From Promethearchaeia archaeon (GTDB lineage: Archaea > Asgardarchaeota > Lokiarchaeia > Sigyniarchaeales > SOKP01), in NCBI GenBank assembly GCA_029856045.1, contig JAHQWG010000016.1, forward strand, positions 160,001 through 224,000: DNA of 64,000 nucleotides, given 5' to 3'. Position 1 is the first letter of the stretch. Each line of letters opens with the position of its first letter. Position numbers and translations under genes: made by a program. The notes below the pieces were generated by a model. The model ran no database searches and was not told the origin of the DNA. It was given only the letters and a program-made list of their open reading frames with translations. Of the stretch, positions 17,739 to 27,366 are shown piece after piece.

Positions 17739-17865
17739 TTAACTTTTCTTAATTTTTTTTATATTCTTTTAGAGAAATTTAATTCAAATTTTCTTGTTAA
17801 AATAAAAAAACTCTTTAAAATTAATTTTAAATAATAAAAACATTTTAATATAATATGAAATATAT

Positions 17866-18003
17866 GGGCCTGTAGATCAGTGGAAGATCATTGGGTTCGG
17901 TCTCGTATCCAAACTTAGGCTTGACTTGCACACCAGCTTGATTGATTTTCATTCAAGAGGTCAAGAGTTCAAGAGGTCACGGGTTCAATTCCCGTCAGGT
18001 CCA
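17866..18003 (+). tRNA. tRNA-Ala(UGC) with two introns (25/26: 17890-17918; 37/38: 17931-17967)
   Basis: Acceptor GGGCCTG/CAGGTCC-A with G3:U70, anticodon arm CTTGA-CT-TGC-A|T-TCAAG, T-arm ACGGG-TTCAATT-CCCGT. BHB CTTG/CAAG at the canonical intron; relaxed BHB at 25/26. Confidence 0.9.
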
Positions 18004-18397
18004 TTTTTTTTATTGAATTTATATAAAATAGATCTTTTATTTTTTTGATTATATTTTCTGCTTTAATCATACATTTCCTGCTTGAGAATCCTTTCGGAAA
18101 CTCAATCCAAACAATATATTTTTCAACATTAATGTTTAAAGGAAGTATTATTGAATACAGATTATTCGTTTGAATTATTAATTTTTTCAATAAATATAAT
18201 TGTTTATAGTTAATAGAATAAAAAATATCTAAAATTTTTTTAAAAGATGCAATTAATTTTTCTCCCGTTTTTATGTTTGAAAAAAAAATTAAACCTTCCT
18301 CTGTTCCTAAAATAATTTTAAATTTTGTGCTTTGAGGGTTAAATAAATGTTCTAAAATTTTATAAATTTCATCATAATTTGTGATTTTATTATACAT
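17969..18397 (-). CDS. Divergent roadblock/longin-like small protein
   Basis: helix-IILGTEEGLIFFSN-helix-beta strands-helix topology; the last 35 nt overlap tRNA-Ala antisense. Confidence 0.55.
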   Translation of the reverse strand: MYNKITNYDEIYKILEHLFNPQSTKFKIILGTEEGLIFFSNIKTGEKLIASFKKILDIFYSINYKQLYLLKKLIIQTNNLYSIILPLNINVEKYIVWIEFPKGFSSRKCMIKAENIIKKIKDLFYINSIKKMDLTGIEPVTS

Positions 18398-18683: not shown

Positions 18684-19934
18684 TCATTTTGCTGAAAAAA
18701 TTTTTATCACATCATTATCTTTTAAAATATAATTCTCTCCTAATTTCATTTTCGATTTTACCTCCATCCCGTAAATAAAATGTTTTGCTAAGTCAGTGTG
18801 AATTTTTTCTCTAATAAATTCCCGTAATTTTGTTCCTTTTCTAATTAAAAAAACATCAGGGAGTACATTTCCATCTTTATCTGTTAAAGTATTTAAATTT
18901 GCAACAGGATATACAGTAATTTGGTCTAATAAAGAATATACTGCGTAATTTAATGTTTTTTGAACTCCTGTACCTCCAATTCCTCGTAATAATTTTTCTC
19001 TAACCTTTTCTAGAGCTTCCAATTCATTTTTTTTTAGATTCTCTTTTTTTATTATAATAAAATCAGTATCACCAGGCATATATTTGATAATACCTTCCTT
19101 ACTATATTCCCTAAGAATGAATTCTGCTAAGGCACTGCATGGAATAATTTTCTTCTTATATTTTTTCTTTAATTCATCCAGTTTTCTCATACCAATCTCT
19201 TTATCAATTTTATTAGCAATTATTATTATCGGTTTAGAGATTTCTCTTAGGTTTTTTGAAAAAAAATTTAGTTCTGCTTTATCCCATTTTGATATTGGCT
19301 TTCCATCTAAATTGGATTTTTCAATTGATTTCTCTATATCGTCCTTTTTAATTGATAATCCTGATAATCTTTGATATAATGCTTCAATAAGCTCATTCCC
19401 CCCCTTAATAACTCTCATTGAAAATTTTCTCCAATCCTCTCTTTCAATAATTCCTTTAAACCATAAATTTATTTCATCTTCTAAAAACATTATATCTTCG
19501 TAAGGATCATGGGACCCTGACTCTACTGTATTTCCATTTGCATCCAAAGAACCTGTAATATCAATAATATGTAATAGTACATCTGCTCGGCTTAAATCAC
19601 TCAAAAATCTATTCCCAAGCCCCTTCCCCTCATGAGCTCCCGGTACTAAACCAGCTACATCTAATAATTGAATAGGAATAAAACGAATTTGTTCTATACA
19701 TTTTGAATTCTTAGGATTATCCTTAACATTCAATTCTTTACATACGCACGGTTTTTTAACATATGCTATTCCTTTATTGGGATCGATAGTTGTAAAGGGA
19801 TAATCTCCAACTTTAGCATGAGTTAAACAAGCACTATTTAAGAATGTACTTTTACCGGAAGAAGGTTTAGGGTTAAATTAGAATCTTTATATATAAATAA
19901 TCTAAAATAATTTCCCTACCACACCGATTAGCAC
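18684..19934 (-). CDS. ychF: YchF/Obg-family ATPase; spliced CDS join(19934..19912,19866..18684), about 401 aa
   Basis: After removing 45 nt the frame reads MLIGVVGKPSSGKSTFLN...DYPFTTIDPNKG...CVC...DVAGLVPGAHEGKGLGNRFL...ANKID, with a C-terminal TGS domain (IHTDLAK). Confidence 0.93.
19867..19911 (-). other. Putative BHB-type mRNA intron in ychF (45 nt)
   Basis: Insert inside the Walker A codons with in-frame TAG/TAA/TAA. Junctions AGGG-AA|A...CCCT-AA|A form a 4-bp helix with two AAA bulges; inner stems TTA/TAA and TTAGA/TCTAA. Confidence 0.8.
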
Positions 19935-20241
19935 ATATTTTCACTTATAACTTAATTTATTTATATTTAATTTATTGCATTTTAGTTAATTTAAAAAAAT
20001 ATAATTATTAAAGTTCTATTTTTCTTTTTAATAAGATTGCATGATAATAACATTTTAATGAATTTATTAAAATTAATTTTTTCTTAATAATTTAAATTTT
20101 TTTAGTTATCATTATTTATGTTTTAATGACCATTTATTATAATCTATTCAGTTCTTAATAAAATATTGATACCCAAATTTCTTGAAATCGTTTTTTCTTC
20201 GTTTTAAAGAAATATTAGTAAAGAAATTAAAGAATCTTATT

Positions 20242-23001
20242 TTAAGAAACTATTTTTTCTTTAGTTAAAGTATTTTGGTTTTTTGGGTTAATTAAATTTT
20301 CAATTAATTGCTTTAAAAGTTGAAAATCTTGTTCCTTTTTGGAAGAAAATTCAAGATTTTTAAATGATATAAAAAAGGATTTTATTTTTTTGTCTAATTT
20401 AATAAAAATTTTTTTTAGAATTTTATAATTTTCAAGTATTTCCTTTTGATTAACTGATATTTTGGAAAAATAACTCGTTCTGTTTTGAAAATAAAACCCT
20501 TTAAAAATCAGTTTAATTTTTTTAATCTCTTTAATTGAAGCCTTTAATATATTAAAAATTTTTGCATCATCAACTTCTTTTGAAATTTCTGTTTCTTTAA
20601 AGATTAAAGATAATAATAAATTCTCTTTAAATTCTCTACTCCATTTAGATGAGATTTGAAATAATTGATTATAGATATTATATCCTTCTTGAGCAAAAAT
20701 CTTACTTTCAATATTGTTATTAAAAGAAGAAAAGATAATTGACTGAAGTTTATCTGGTAATTTCAAAGTTGAAATTTTCAAGAACAGATTAGGTCCTTTT
20801 GTGCTGTCAAAAATTGACAATAATAATATATAATTTGGAATTTTTTTTTTATCTGTTTCTCCTTTCATCTCAACGTTGATAAGTTCATTTGAATCGATGT
20901 TCTCTATTAATTCTTTAAAATAATATTCATGCGCATTATGAAATTTTTTGCTTTTACTATTAAAGTTTTTTCTTAAATTATTTAATTTTAAAAATACTCT
21001 TTTGGTATATTTTAAAAGGAGATTCGCATCCTCTGCAGAAATTTTTCCTGTAGAATCGGTTATTTCAATAATTTTACTGAGTTTCTTCAATTCTGAATAT
21101 ATAATAAAACTCTTTTGTAATTGATTTTTTTCAATATTCGCTAGAAAATCATTAATATTATAGAATTTGAAATTTAGTCGACATGCTATTTGTTCTAAAA
21201 GCTCCTCAATGATGTTTTTACATTCTAGTCTACAATATTCAAAAGATTTACTCAAATAATATTTTTGAGCACTTTTAATTCGCTCTTTTAAATTTTTAAT
21301 TGTTATTTTCCTTTTCTCATAAAAATTTTTCATATTTTTTTTTTCAGCGTTATTTGAAAACTTATCCTCCGTATCTTTTTTAAACTCAACTAAATTTTTA
21401 TTATTCCTATTAAAGGGTTTCAAAACATCTTTTTTATTATTTCTAAATGACTTTTTAAAATTAATTGATTTGAATTTTAATCTTTGTTTTCTCGAATTTA
21501 ATACTTTTTTCATTGGGTTGATCCTATTTTTCAATAAAATAGAATTACGATTTTCTAGCTTTGATTCTAATTTTCTTTTTTTTTCTGCCATAAAAGGAAT
21601 TTGAAGAACAAATGGGTCTTTAATTGAATTCACTCTTACAATACATTGACCTTCATTCAAATAAGATAAATAATCATAATGATCTTTTGGTAATGACAAT
21701 AATTCTCCTAATATTTCCTTTTCATAATAATTTTTAAAACTTACAACGACACCTGAATTTGCTAAAATCTCTTCACTTATATCAGGTCGAGTTGCAATAC
21801 ATATAAGACATTCACCAGTTCCCCTTTGTAATAAGGCAATATCCTCTAAATATGTACTTAATTTACTTTTTTTAACTATACTTCTTGGTACAAAATATTG
21901 TGCGTCTTCTATAATAGTGATGTGTTTAATCCCTTGATGTTCTCCAGATTCTAAGTTATAATCCCATAAATATTTAAGTATAACATTTAAAAAGAAAAAT
22001 AAATCCTCTTTATCCCCACCAAGACGAATAATCGAACTTAAATCCAAAATACAATCTCTTTGTAAAATTTCTTTTATTGAAATTGATGTATTATTTTCAA
22101 AAACTTTTTTTAAAGGTCCTTCAGAAAACCTTCGAATCCTATTCTTTATACTTATTATCGTTTGTTTTAATTGAGGGATTTGATTTTCATATTTCAGTAA
22201 ATATTCTTCACAAAAGTTATGAAAACTTTGCCAACTTCTTGTATTTTCTTTATAACAAACATTTGTCATGATCTCTACCAAAACTTTTTCCATCTGTGGT
22301 GTGTATTCAACATTAGATTCGAGAAATTGAGAGCTTTTTAAGATCTCAAATATTCTTTCAGCATGAATAGATGGATTTGTAAATTCCGGATTGAAAATAT
22401 TAATTGAAAAATTTTCTCCAGGGGATAAAAGTAAAATATTCTTTAACCTTTTACATAGAAACTTATATTCTCCCTTAAATTCTACTAAAAAAAATGGAAT
22501 ATTTTCTCTTTTTTTAAAATTTATTAAAAAATTTTGTACAAAATTGCTTTTACCTGTTCCCGTAAATCCACAAATAAATATGTGTCTTTCTAAGTCTTTT
22601 TTTGTTAAATAAAAATTAAATTTTTTCCTCCTTTTTCTGACCAACCGACCAATTTTTATTTTACCTTTTTTTGAATCCTTTCTGGCAGGAATCGGTAAAT
22701 CTATAATTTTACTATTAGCTGGATAAAAAGATGACAAAATTAGTAATGTAAATGAAAGAATTATACCAATTAATATAAGAGAAATAAATAAATTTAGCGA
22801 AATTGATTCAGATTTTATATTATTTTGAAATATAAAATAAAGAATTAAAAAAAATATATTGGCTGCATTAAGAATTATTATCGATTTCTTATGGTTGGGC
22901 ATGCTAAATCCTTTTTTTCTTAAAAGGAAAAATAAAAAATTAATGAAAATTAGAAAAAAAAAAAATCCGTAATAAAGTAAATGCCAAAAAATATTAACCA
23001 T
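20242..23001 (-). CDS. Membrane-anchored HerA/VirB4-like (DUF87) ATPase with C-terminal uDENN/longin-like domain
   Basis: Three N-terminal TM helices, HIFICGFTGTGKS, LVEFKGEY, IIEDAQ, ATRPDIS; C-terminal LLSIFDSTKGP...FQISSKWSR...LLLSLIF. Confidence 0.8.
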   Translation of the reverse strand: MVNIFWHLLYYGFFFFLIFINFLFFLLRKKGFSMPNHKKSIIILNAANIFFLILYFIFQNNIKSESISLNLFISLILIGIILSFTLLILSSFYPANSKIIDLPIPARKDSKKGKIKIGRLVRKRRKKFNFYLTKKDLERHIFICGFTGTGKSNFVQNFLINFKKRENIPFFLVEFKGEYKFLCKRLKNILLLSPGENFSINIFNPEFTNPSIHAERIFEILKSSQFLESNVEYTPQMEKVLVEIMTNVCYKENTRSWQSFHNFCEEYLLKYENQIPQLKQTIISIKNRIRRFSEGPLKKVFENNTSISIKEILQRDCILDLSSIIRLGGDKEDLFFFLNVILKYLWDYNLESGEHQGIKHITIIEDAQYFVPRSIVKKSKLSTYLEDIALLQRGTGECLICIATRPDISEEILANSGVVVSFKNYYEKEILGELLSLPKDHYDYLSYLNEGQCIVRVNSIKDPFVLQIPFMAEKKRKLESKLENRNSILLKNRINPMKKVLNSRKQRLKFKSINFKKSFRNNKKDVLKPFNRNNKNLVEFKKDTEDKFSNNAEKKNMKNFYEKRKITIKNLKERIKSAQKYYLSKSFEYCRLECKNIIEELLEQIACRLNFKFYNINDFLANIEKNQLQKSFIIYSELKKLSKIIEITDSTGKISAEDANLLLKYTKRVFLKLNNLRKNFNSKSKKFHNAHEYYFKELIENIDSNELINVEMKGETDKKKIPNYILLLSIFDSTKGPNLFLKISTLKLPDKLQSIIFSSFNNNIESKIFAQEGYNIYNQLFQISSKWSREFKENLLLSLIFKETEISKEVDDAKIFNILKASIKEIKKIKLIFKGFYFQNRTSYFSKISVNQKEILENYKILKKIFIKLDKKIKSFFISFKNLEFSSKKEQDFQLLKQLIENLINPKNQNTLTKEKIVS

Positions 23002-26823: not shown

Positions 26824-26999
26824 ATTTTTCAAATTATTATTATCCTCCTATGATATTATATAGAAAATAATTTTTTCATTAAAATATTAATATTATAATA
26901 ATTTTTATTCTATTTTTTTTTATTTAAGAAAAAACCTCATGAATAAATTTTAATTTTATTATTAATATTTCTCAATAAATTAATTTAAAAAAAAAATTT

Positions 27000-27093
27000 G
27001 CTCTCGTAGTGTAGCTCGGCCAAACTTTAAAATTGAGGCTAAGCATGCTAGGCTTTCACCCTGGTGACCCGGGTTCGAATCCCGGCGAGAGCA
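27000..27093 (+). tRNA. tRNA-Glu(UUC) with 19-nt D-arm intron (27024-27042)
   Basis: GCTCTCG/CGAGAGC-A, CTAGG-CT-TTC-AC-CCTGG; BHB GGCC-AA|A...GGCT-AA|G restores GGCCAAGCAT. Confidence 0.92.
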
Positions 27094-27366
27094 TAAAAAT
27101 ATTATTTTTTAATCCTTATTATTTAAAAAAATCGAAAAATATTGCAGCTTTTGGGTACTTACAAATGTTAGTGATATAATTTTGATTTTATCAAAGAACT
27201 ATGGAGATTCTTTATTTAAAGTTATAACTTAATTAAAAAATTATTTTCTATCATTGAATTTTGTACCCAACCCTCTTTTTTCATTTAAATAGTTTCAATT
27301 TATAATTTTTTTAATTCAAGTTATTCAATAAAATAAAATTTGTAAAAATTGACATATTGAAGTAAA

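What the first reader, a model, noticed from the sequence alone, without database searches (positions are those of the whole stretch)
19867..19911. tRNA-type (BHB) intron splitting the Walker A motif of the protein-coding gene ychF
Seen: the minus strand reads GTG CTA ATC GGT GTG GTA GGG AA|A-ttattttagattatttatatataaagattctaatttaaccctaa|A CCT TCT TCC GGT AAA AGT. The 45-nt insert carries three in-frame stops, which is why the ORF track reports a truncated 349-aa protein with no P-loop. Removing it restores MLIGVVGKPSSGKST and a full-length 401-aa YchF with otherwise intact motifs. The junctions fold as AGGG/CCCT (4-bp helix) with an AAA bulge on each strand and an inner TTA/TAA stem; the outer helix is imperfect. 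Cutting after the 2nd bulge nucleotide (the EndA rule) gives exactly the in-frame product, the same geometry as the tRNA-Leu intron in this window. Known: EndA-spliced mRNA introns in archaea are established mainly for crenarchaeal cbf5. Inference: this Asgard archaeon splices a translation-factor mRNA with the tRNA machinery, possibly as a regulatory switch (conceptually like HAC1/XBP1 splicing). More such introns may be hidden as 'truncated' genes.
Basis: partly seen in the sequence, partly recalled or inferred. Interest (0 to 1): 0.95.

Follow-up and report, generated by a model that had tools for sequence, protein, structure and literature searches.

The report
tRNA-type intron splitting Asgard ychF gene
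The only YchF-related GTPase gene of this Asgard (Loki-type) archaeon is broken inside its nucleotide-binding loop by a 45-base insert shaped like a tRNA intron; the insert is kept across a whole genus while the gene stays under strong selection, so the mRNA is very probably cut and rejoined by the tRNA-splicing enzymes, which published work shows for only one other archaeal protein gene (cbf5).

Summary
On the minus strand, GTG(19934)-LIGVVGK is followed by 45 nt (19911-19867) carrying TAG, TAA and TAA in frame, then PSSGKST... runs open to the stop at 18684. Removing the insert gives a 401-aa YchF-related GTPase (NF007171).

The insert is not an error or a dead gene:
- It sits at the same codon in all 5 genomes of the genus and in further metagenome contigs, as 9 distinct variants of 44, 45 or 47 nt.
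- The gene is single-copy. The stretch upstream of the annotated start has dN 0.02-0.10 against dS 0.4-1.8.
- The RNA forms a central helix AGGG/CCCU flanked by AAA bulges, plus a 10-bp inner stem with four compensatory pairs. The outer helix is weak, so this is a relaxed bulge-helix-bulge (BHB) motif.
- The genome encodes a two-subunit EndA whose catalytic subunit keeps the broad-specificity loop lysine, and RtcB.

A different 31-32 nt, textbook BHB intron lies 5 nt downstream in sister genera. A third insert occurs in a distant family.

The proposed regulatory role has no support. This scan had already reported ychF P-loop introns in other genomes. I found no paper describing them.

The parts
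19912..19934 (-). Exon 1 of the YchF-related GTPase gene. It holds the GTG start (19934-19932), codons L I G V V G, and the first two bases of the Walker A lysine codon.
   Evidence: Across 9 variants the only changes are synonymous (CTA/CTG, ATC/ATT, GGT/GGA, GTG/GTA) or swaps between start codons (GTG/ATG/TTG).
19867..19911 (-). 45-nt BHB-type intron in the EndA register, cut after the 2nd nucleotide of each AAA bulge. It contains TAG, TAA and TAA in the exon frame.
   Evidence: Homologous inserts of 44, 45 or 47 nt lie at the same codon in all relatives of the clade.
18684..19866 (-). Exon 2. It holds the last base of the Lys codon, then PSSGKST... for 393 codons, plus the stop codon (18686-18684). 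Domains are MMR_HSR1, YGR210-like G4 and TGS.
   Evidence: NCBIfam NF007171 'YchF-related putative GTPase' scores 485.7 bits against a cut-off of 387. Exon 2 is exactly 393 codons in all 9 variants.
19914..19917 (-). 5' strand of the central 4-bp helix H (AGGG), lying in exon 1.
   Evidence: It pairs with CCCU at 19872-19869. The pairing is kept in 9/9 variants, with one G-C to G-U change in L001.
19869..19872 (-). 3' strand of the central helix H (CCCU), at the 3' end of the intron.
19911..19913 (-). 5' bulge AAA. The predicted cut lies between 19912 and 19911.
   Evidence: It is unpaired in both the MFE and the centroid fold and is invariant in 9/9 variants.
19866..19868 (-). 3' bulge AAA. 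The predicted cut lies between 19867 and 19866.
   Evidence: In the centroid it is a 3-nt loop opposite one unpaired U. In the MFE it is a 2-nt bulge with an extra U-A pair. The outer helix is only GG(U)/(A)CC and is broken in G001.
19901..19910 (-). 5' arm of the inner helix h' (UUAUUUUAGA).
   Evidence: It pairs with 19882-19873. Four of the 10 pairs show changes on both sides across variants, for example U-A to C-G.
19873..19882 (-). 3' arm of the inner helix h' (UCUAAUUUAA).
19941..19946 (-). AAGTGA, a possible Shine-Dalgarno-like element 6 nt upstream of the exon-1 start codon (inference).
   Evidence: This is read directly from the sequence. Relatives have GGTGG, GTGAGG or GGTGA at the same place. 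It was not tested further.

Best explanation
The 45 nt at 19911-19867 are an archaeal bulge-helix-bulge intron inside the coding sequence of the single YchF-related GTPase gene. In the pre-mRNA, the last exon-1 bases (AGGG) pair with the last intron bases (CCCU) to form the 4-bp central helix. An AAA bulge follows this helix on each strand, and the rest of the intron forms a 10-bp hairpin. The host's two-subunit, crenarchaeal-type splicing endonuclease cuts after the second nucleotide of each bulge. RtcB then joins the exons and rebuilds the codons GGG-AAA-CCU, which restores the Walker A loop GVVGKPSSGKST of a 401-aa protein. The intron is released, probably as a small circle. Unspliced mRNA can yield only a 10-residue peptide, or a P-loop-less fragment from an internal start. 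Shown here: the anatomy, its conservation and covariation, purifying selection on both exons, single copy, and the presence of the enzymes. Inferred: the cleavage and ligation themselves, and that splicing is constitutive.
For: - Same insertion point in every member of the clade: 5/5 genomes of genus g1 plus metagenome contigs from at least seven samples, giving 9 distinct intron sequences.
- Intron lengths are 44, 45 and 47 nt, so in most lineages the insert also shifts the frame and cannot be translated through.
- All 32 members of the nearest 90% protein cluster, seen on more than 40 contigs, are truncated calls of 306-349 aa, with no 401-aa form.
- No contig with the joined junction exists in the JGI metagenome collection.
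- The gene is single-copy in a genome estimated 100% complete.
- For exon-1 codons 2-8 plus the first 44 codons of exon 2, all upstream of the annotated start, dN is 0.02-0.10 and dS 0.40-1.77. Exon 2 is exactly 393 codons in all 9 variants.
- Structure: 91% of pair cells are kept against 24-56% for slid controls, with 4 compensatory pairs, and H is kept in 9/9. The centroid fold has the BHB shape.
- Cutting after the 2nd bulge nucleotide gives the exact consensus P-loop.
- Enzymes: there are two EndA-domain genes. The catalytic one is most similar to the A. pernix alpha subunit (3p1z_B, E 2e-38) and aligns without gaps through the Crenarchaea-specific loop, keeping K-P-R at K44/R46. K44 is the residue needed for relaxed substrates (PMC3241643). 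RtcB is present.
- Published analysis states that Asgard archaea have (alpha-beta)2 EndA with this L1 loop (PMC5829648).
- Independent parallel: genera g6 and g3 and an NCBI MAG carry a different 31-32 nt intron 5 nt downstream. It has a textbook hBHBh' motif, with a 7-bp exon-exon helix, H AGCC/GGCU, bulges AAG/AGG, 97.9% pairing and 4 compensatory pairs.
Against:
- The 3' cut site is not a clean 3-nt bulge. The outer helix is only GG(U)/(A)CC and is weakened further in G001, so cleavage depends on the enzyme accepting a relaxed motif.
- The fold is not more stable than shuffled sequence (z -0.42).
- The identical AAA triplets at both borders would also suit a ribosome hop.
- The variants are related to each other, so the covariation counts are not independent events.
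Confidence: 0.85

Rival explanations
1. Programmed translational bypassing (a ribosome hop, as in phage T4 gene 60). The peptidyl-tRNA-Lys takes off at the first AAA and lands on the second AAA 44-47 nt downstream, skipping the hairpin.
For: Identical AAA triplets border the insert in all 9 variants, and a hairpin starts right after the take-off codon.
Against: The codon after the take-off AAA is UUA or CUA, not a stop. Only 8 residues have been made at that point, too few for a nascent-peptide signal in the exit tunnel. The conserved helix AGGG/CCCU uses the two codons before the take-off site, which would be inside the ribosome and unable to pair. The sister intron at site B has no matching take-off and landing codons yet has a perfect BHB. 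Bypassing is not known in archaea; that last point is my own knowledge.
Confidence: 0.03
2. The gene is a pseudogene, or it now makes only the P-loop-less 349-aa protein from the internal TTG at 19733, and the insert is tolerated junk.
For: Gene callers report only truncated products of 306-353 aa in every assembly.
Against: The region upstream of the internal start is at least as constrained as the rest of the gene, with dN/dS about 0.04-0.14 while synonymous sites are near saturation. Exon 1 shows only synonymous changes and keeps a start codon. There are no indels in 393 codons across 9 lineages. The insert's structure, not its sequence, is what is conserved. The gene is single-copy, and a match was found in 336 of 400 genomes of the phylum.
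Confidence: 0.03
3. The insert is removed from the RNA, but by something other than EndA/RtcB, such as another endonuclease, or by cuts at other positions in the hairpin.
For: The 3' bulge is poorly framed. A third insert in a distant family (G275) needs productive cuts one nucleotide off the strict rule on each side.
Against: The 4-bp helix with 3-nt bulges is exactly the EndA ruler. The rule gives the correct product at sites A and B. No ribozyme or other RNA family was detected here. 45 nt is too small for a self-splicing intron.
Confidence: 0.05
4. Assembly or sequencing artefact.
For: None was found.
Against: The insert is present in independent assemblies from JGI, ENA, NCBI and Logan, on dozens of contigs and in diverged variants.
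Confidence: 0.005

Closest known systems
BHB intron in the cbf5 (pseudouridine synthase) pre-mRNA of Crenarchaeota (Watanabe 2002; Yoshinari 2006; Yokobori 2009, PMC2738675)
   Same: Both are short introns inside a protein-coding sequence, bounded by a bulge-helix-bulge motif. The host in each case has a hetero-oligomeric (alpha-beta)2 EndA. Both have a patchy distribution that implies gain and precise loss.
   Different: The gene differs (a YchF-related GTPase, with the intron inside Walker A at codon 8) and so does the phylum (Asgard/Promethearchaeota rather than TACK). cbf5 in this genome is uninterrupted. Splicing of cbf5 is shown experimentally, whereas here it is inferred. The 3' half of this motif is relaxed.
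Archaeal tRNA introns at canonical and non-canonical positions (hBHBh', HBh', BHL motifs)
   Same: The ruler is the same: a 4-bp helix and 3-nt bulges, with the cut after the second bulge nucleotide. The sizes are similar. This genome has many intron-bearing tRNAs, for example tRNA-Met at 60656-60557 with bulges UA|A and AA|A.
   Different: The exons here are mRNA, not a tRNA body, so the helix partners are codons. The intron sequence has no paralogue elsewhere in the genome.
BHB intron in the 5' UTR of Haloferax volcanii HVO_1309 (PMC7714728)
   Same: Both are EndA substrates in an mRNA, of similar size (46 nt in HVO_1309).
   Different: The Haloferax intron lies in the untranslated leader and does not interrupt codons. 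The ychF intron must be removed for any functional protein to be made.
IRE1/RtcB splicing of HAC1/XBP1 mRNA in eukaryotes
   Same: Both are non-spliceosomal: endonuclease cuts at stem-loops are followed by tRNA-ligase or RtcB joining, and the reading frame of an mRNA changes.
   Different: The endonuclease and the motif are different. HAC1/XBP1 splicing is stress-regulated, and no sign of regulation was found or tested here.

Membership tests
Archaeal BHB (splicing-endonuclease) intron | Central 4-bp helix flanked by a 3-nt bulge on each strand | tested here: met
   AGGG/CCCU with AAA on both strands appears in the centroid fold. H is paired in 9/9 variants.
Archaeal BHB (splicing-endonuclease) intron | Flanking helices h (exon-exon) and h' (intron-internal) that frame the bulges | tested here: inconclusive
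   h' is strong: 10 bp, 87% of cells paired, 4 compensatory pairs. h is only GG(U)/(A)CC, gives a 1x3 loop or a 2-nt bulge, and is broken in G001. The motif is therefore a relaxed HBh'-like form.
Archaeal BHB (splicing-endonuclease) intron | Cutting after the 2nd bulge nucleotide yields the functional product | tested here: met
   GGGAA|A...CCCUAA|A gives GGG AAA CCU, which restores GVVGKPSSGKST, the family consensus.
Archaeal BHB (splicing-endonuclease) intron | Host encodes an EndA able to cut relaxed motifs, plus an RNA ligase | tested here: met
   There are two EndA subunits, and the alpha subunit keeps the CSL K-P-R. RtcB is present. PMC5829648 reports (alpha-beta)2 EndA with the L1 loop in Asgard archaea.
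Archaeal BHB (splicing-endonuclease) intron | Spliced RNA junction and/or circular intron observed | not testable with these tools
No joined junction was found in JGI contigs, and there is no 401-aa product in the protein collection.
YchF-related putative GTPase (NCBIfam NF007171; Pfam MMR_HSR1 + YGR210-like_G4 + TGS) | Score above the curated cut-off, with the domain order | tested here: met
   It scores 485.7 bits against a cut-off of 387. The Pfam domains are found.
Programmed translational bypass (T4 gene 60 type) | Matched take-off and landing codons, a stop codon right after take-off, and a nascent-peptide signal | tested here: not met
   The AAA/AAA codons match, but the next codon is UUA or CUA, and only 8 residues precede the gap.
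Group I / group II self-splicing intron | Ribozyme core detectable and size over about 200 nt | tested here: not met
   The insert is 44-47 nt. The Rfam scan of the window finds only 16S rRNA and tRNAs.

The most novel reading that the evidence does not exclude
The Walker A codons of the Asgard YchF-related GTPase are a hot spot where tRNA-type introns have been gained repeatedly, at three different positions within about 16 nt: site A in genus g1, site B in g6/g3, and site C in a distant family. On this reading BHB introns are, or were, mobile in Asgard mRNAs. They would target sequences that can form an exon-exon helix, and a set of essential Asgard genes would depend on tRNA-splicing enzymes for expression, perhaps with splicing acting as a gate on translation. 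That would be a protein-gene intron system in the closest prokaryotic relatives of eukaryotes that does not use the spliceosome.
Probability: 0.3. Interest if true: 0.85.

Novelty: new member of a known kind. Interest (0 to 1): 0.72.

Why it matters
- **Rarity in the literature.** EndA-spliced introns inside protein-coding sequence are documented for a single archaeal gene, cbf5, in Crenarchaeota. As late as 2020-2025, papers cite only that case plus one 5' UTR.
- **What this case adds.** A conserved single-copy GTPase in Asgard archaea needs the same machinery to rebuild its catalytic loop. Sister lineages carry a second, independent and textbook intron a few bases away.
- **Link to intron origins.** Intron-interrupted protein genes and their RNA-level repair therefore exist in the lineage closest to eukaryotes. 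This bears on how intron-tolerant gene expression arose.
- **Effect on annotation.** Pipelines report these genes as truncated, or with nonsense N-termini such as the 409-aa NCBI product P0104. Asgard proteomes and marker-gene sets contain systematic errors as a result.
- **Testability.** The claim can be tested directly with existing sediment metatranscriptomes or with recombinant EndA.

Tried and rejected
- **Joined junction in contigs.** A search for the joined junction in JGI metagenome contigs gave 0 hits. This says only that no intron-less allele or assembled transcript is held there.
- **Genome-wide scan.** My own scan of G000 looked for BHB geometry that fuses two long open frames. It gave 1107 hits dominated by AT-rich chance pairings between neighbouring genes. 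The best-looking hit, C51:157738-157778, is just an ABC ATPase next to an ABC-2 permease. The scan has no discriminating power without homology, and I drew nothing from it.
- **Intron paralogues.** blastn-short of the intron against the genome found no paralogue, so there is no evidence of a mobile intron family in this genome.
- **Possible fourth intron site.** Proteins starting 'MGKPSS' (395 aa) looked like another intron site, but the DNA shows an uninterrupted ATT-GTT-ATT-ATA-GGC-ATT-GTG-GGT run after a GGAGG box. That points to an unusual start codon, not an intron.
- **Short upstream open frames.** Five genomes with short open frames upstream (G178, G179, G182, G224, G236) turned out to be normal.
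- **C/D-box guide RNA in the intron.** I saw no UGAUGA/CUGA boxes when reading the sequence by eye.
- **Other mechanisms.** Intein, group I/II intron and assembly error were all rejected; see the rival explanations and the membership test.

Full report
**What is there.** On the minus strand the window reads GTG(19934) CTA ATC GGT GTG GTA GGG AAA, then 45 nt, then CCT TCT TCC GGT AAA AGT, and stays open to the stop at 18684. Translated straight through, the insert gives LF*IIYI*RF*FNPK, so it carries three in-frame stops. The mechanical ORF list therefore shows only a 349-aa ORF from TTG 19733 with no P-loop. The part after the insert (P0001, 393 aa) has MMR_HSR1, YGR210-like G4 and TGS domains. 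It scores 485.7 bits on NCBIfam NF007171 'YchF-related putative GTPase', whose cut-off is 387. Joining the exons gives MLIGVVGKPSSGKSTFLN, which is the consensus N-terminus of intron-less relatives such as MTIIIGIVGKPSSGKSTFLN. The window also holds an archaeal 16S rRNA gene and several intron-bearing tRNAs. Near relatives are deposited as 'Promethearchaeota archaeon', the Asgard phylum.

**Not an artefact and not a dead gene.**
- The closest database homologues (71-91% identity) are all N-terminally truncated gene calls. Relatives at 60-63% identity are full length.
- I fetched the DNA behind these truncated calls. The same codon is interrupted in every case.
- With the genus-level genomes and a pattern scan of JGI contigs, this gives 9 distinct intron sequences of 44, 45 or 47 nt. 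In most lineages the insert also shifts the frame.
- All 32 members of the nearest 90% cluster, seen on more than 40 contigs, are 306-349 aa.
- No contig in the JGI collection carries the joined junction.
- The genome (3.34 Mb, estimated 100% complete) has a single copy of the gene.
- Exon 1 differs among lineages only by synonymous changes and by GTG/ATG/TTG start codons.
- For exon-1 codons 2-8 plus the first 44 codons of exon 2, all upstream of the annotated start, dN is 0.02-0.10 and dS 0.40-1.77. This is at least as constrained as the rest of the gene (dN 0.13-0.20, dS 0.8-2.5). Exon 2 is exactly 393 codons in all nine.
- A maximum-likelihood tree of the protein puts all carriers in one clade (100/98) with two deep sub-branches. 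The intron has therefore persisted while synonymous sites approached saturation.

**Structure.**
- The RNAfold centroid of window:19857-19925(-) is GG. AGGG ... [inner stem] ... CCCU ... CC. This is a 4-bp helix between the end of exon 1 and the end of the intron, an AAA bulge after it on each strand, and an inner hairpin.
- The energy is not better than shuffles (z -0.42), so the single-sequence fold proves nothing.
- On the alignment of nine variants (A1), the named structure keeps 91% of pair cells, against 24-56% when the partners are slid by 1-3 columns. Four inner-stem pairs change on both sides, for example U-A to C-G. The central helix is kept in 9/9, with one G-C to G-U change.
- The outer exon-exon helix is weak. 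It is GG(U)/(A)CC, which gives a 1x3 loop or a 2-nt bulge, and it is broken in G001. The motif is therefore a relaxed BHB, well formed at the 5' site and less so at the 3' site.
- Cutting after the second nucleotide of each bulge (19912|19911 and 19867|19866) gives GGG-AAA-CCU. Because AAA flanks both sides, the product is the same in any symmetric register.

**Machinery.**
- The genome has two separate EndA-domain genes, with ORFs of 197 and 203 aa.
- The first is most similar to the catalytic alpha subunit of the Aeropyrum pernix heterotetramer (3p1z_B, E 1.8e-38). It aligns without gaps through the Crenarchaea-specific loop and keeps K-P-R at the positions of K44-P-R46.
- K44 is the residue shown to be needed for cutting relaxed and non-canonical motifs (PMC3241643).
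- The second gene is a divergent EndA-like protein with weak similarity to beta subunits.
- Published analysis states that Asgard archaea carry the (alpha-beta)2 type with this L1 loop (PMC5829648).
- RtcB is present on the same contig.
- Together these make cleavage of a relaxed 3' site plausible. That step is still inference.

**An independent parallel (site B).** While checking relatives I found a different insert 5 nt downstream, CCAA|G...|GTTCN GGN. It is 31-32 nt long.
- Carriers are four genomes of genus g6, one genome of g3 and an NCBI MAG.
- It is a textbook hBHBh' motif. It has a 7-bp exon-exon helix GUCGGAA/UUCUGGC, a central helix AGCC/GGCU or AACC/GGUU, bulges AAG/AGG and an 8-9 bp inner stem. 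Pairing is 97.9% against 33-53% for slid controls, with four compensatory pairs.
- The strict cutting rule gives AAG CCA AGU UCU GGC, which encodes K P S S G.
- Two g6 genomes and one g3 genome lack it. This implies either gain followed by precise loss, or transfer.
- The loop TTGGTAAAT.ATTTTAT is shared between the G009 (g6) and g3 copies, which argues for a common origin.
- Five database proteins have the tell-tale garbage N-terminus ...(K/R)RL(S/G)SGKST. One of them, P0104, is annotated by NCBI as a 409-aa GTPase.
- Site A and site B introns share no sequence. The site A intron has no paralogue in its own genome.

**A third insert (site C).** A pattern search prompted by an earlier scan note found a 31-nt insert in the Lys codon of GK(T) in a distant family (G275). 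It folds well (z -2.5). However, the strict rule would remove 33 nt and give the wrong frame, so its geometry is unresolved.

**Distribution.** Among 400 genomes of the phylum, 336 gave a match. The site A signature (open frame stopping 4 codons upstream) was seen only in genus g1, in 5 of 5 genomes. Only the best 150 matches were listed, so rarer carriers may have been missed. cbf5 in this genome is uninterrupted.

**Rival explanations.**
- Ribosome hop from AAA to AAA. The repeated triplet fits. Against it, there is no stop after the take-off codon, only 8 residues of nascent chain exist at that point, the conserved helix uses codons that would sit inside the ribosome, and site B has no matched codons.
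- Pseudogene or P-loop-less protein. The selection data contradict this.
- Self-splicing intron or intein. Size, the stop codons and the Rfam result exclude these.
- Assembly error. Dozens of independent contigs exclude it.

**What is known.** The papers I could search name cbf5 of Crenarchaeota as the only BHB intron in an archaeal coding sequence, plus one 5' UTR intron in Haloferax (PMC2738675, PMC7714728, PMC12397907). Six searches found nothing on BHB introns in Asgard protein genes. A 2026 preprint on Asgard tRNA introns does not treat mRNAs. Subscription-only papers are not covered by the library.

**Earlier notes of this scan.** These are unchecked AI notes. They had already reported ychF P-loop introns of 45, 47 and 31 nt in other genomes. 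They also report candidate mRNA introns in dnaG, mevalonate kinase and a B12 mutase subunit of this same genome. I did not verify the last three.

**Limits.** No RNA data could be obtained, so splicing is inferred from comparative evidence. My own genome-wide scan for further mRNA introns was uninformative.

Noticed in passing
L029, L035, L051-L053, L068 (G009, G027, G065, G066, G025; NCBI JBHLNH010000017.1): A second, canonical 31-32 nt BHB intron lies 5 nt downstream of the window's site in the same Walker A motif of ychF. It occurs in genera g6 and g3. Close relatives (G020, G033, G006) lack it. NCBI annotates one carrier as a 409-aa protein with a nonsense N-terminus.
   Followed up: yes
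L071:1501-1569 (-) = G275:C1:2191671-2191739: A third 31-nt hairpin insert splits the lysine codon of GK(T) in ychF of a distant Asgard family. The fold is UCGG-GAA-stem-CCGA-UAA (z -2.5). The strict 'cut after the 2nd bulge nucleotide' rule would remove 33 nt and give the wrong frame, so the productive cuts are one nucleotide off on each side.
   Followed up: partly
window 17865-18004 (+): A tRNA directly downstream of the 16S rRNA gene spans about 140 nt. ARAGORN models it as tRNA-Pro(CGG) with a 65-nt intron. The real intron number and positions were not resolved.
   Followed up: partly
window 26999-27094 (+): This tRNA is called Ser(TGA) without an intron in default mode and Leu(GAG) with a 14-nt intron in intron mode. 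Its identity is ambiguous.
   Followed up: partly
L066:560-640 and L067:80-160: ychF genes of another Loki-type lineage have no ATG, GTG or TTG before the conserved IVIIGIVGK run. After a GGAGG box the frame opens with ATT, suggesting a non-canonical start codon. Gene callers start them at the internal GTG, giving 'MGKPSS...'.
   Followed up: partly
G008, G021, G082, G083, G085 (family f1): Several genomes estimated 94-97% complete gave no ychF match at all with P0001 or its first 120 residues. The gene may be unassembled, or split in a way the search misses.
   Followed up: no
window 20242-23001 (-): A 919-aa DUF87/HerA-like ATPase gene lies immediately upstream of ychF. It is syntenic in the relatives L001-L003 and L068.
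   Followed up: no
L002:4904-5737: A LAGLIDADG_3 homing-endonuclease-like gene lies about 1 kb downstream of the intron-bearing ychF in one relative.
   Followed up: no
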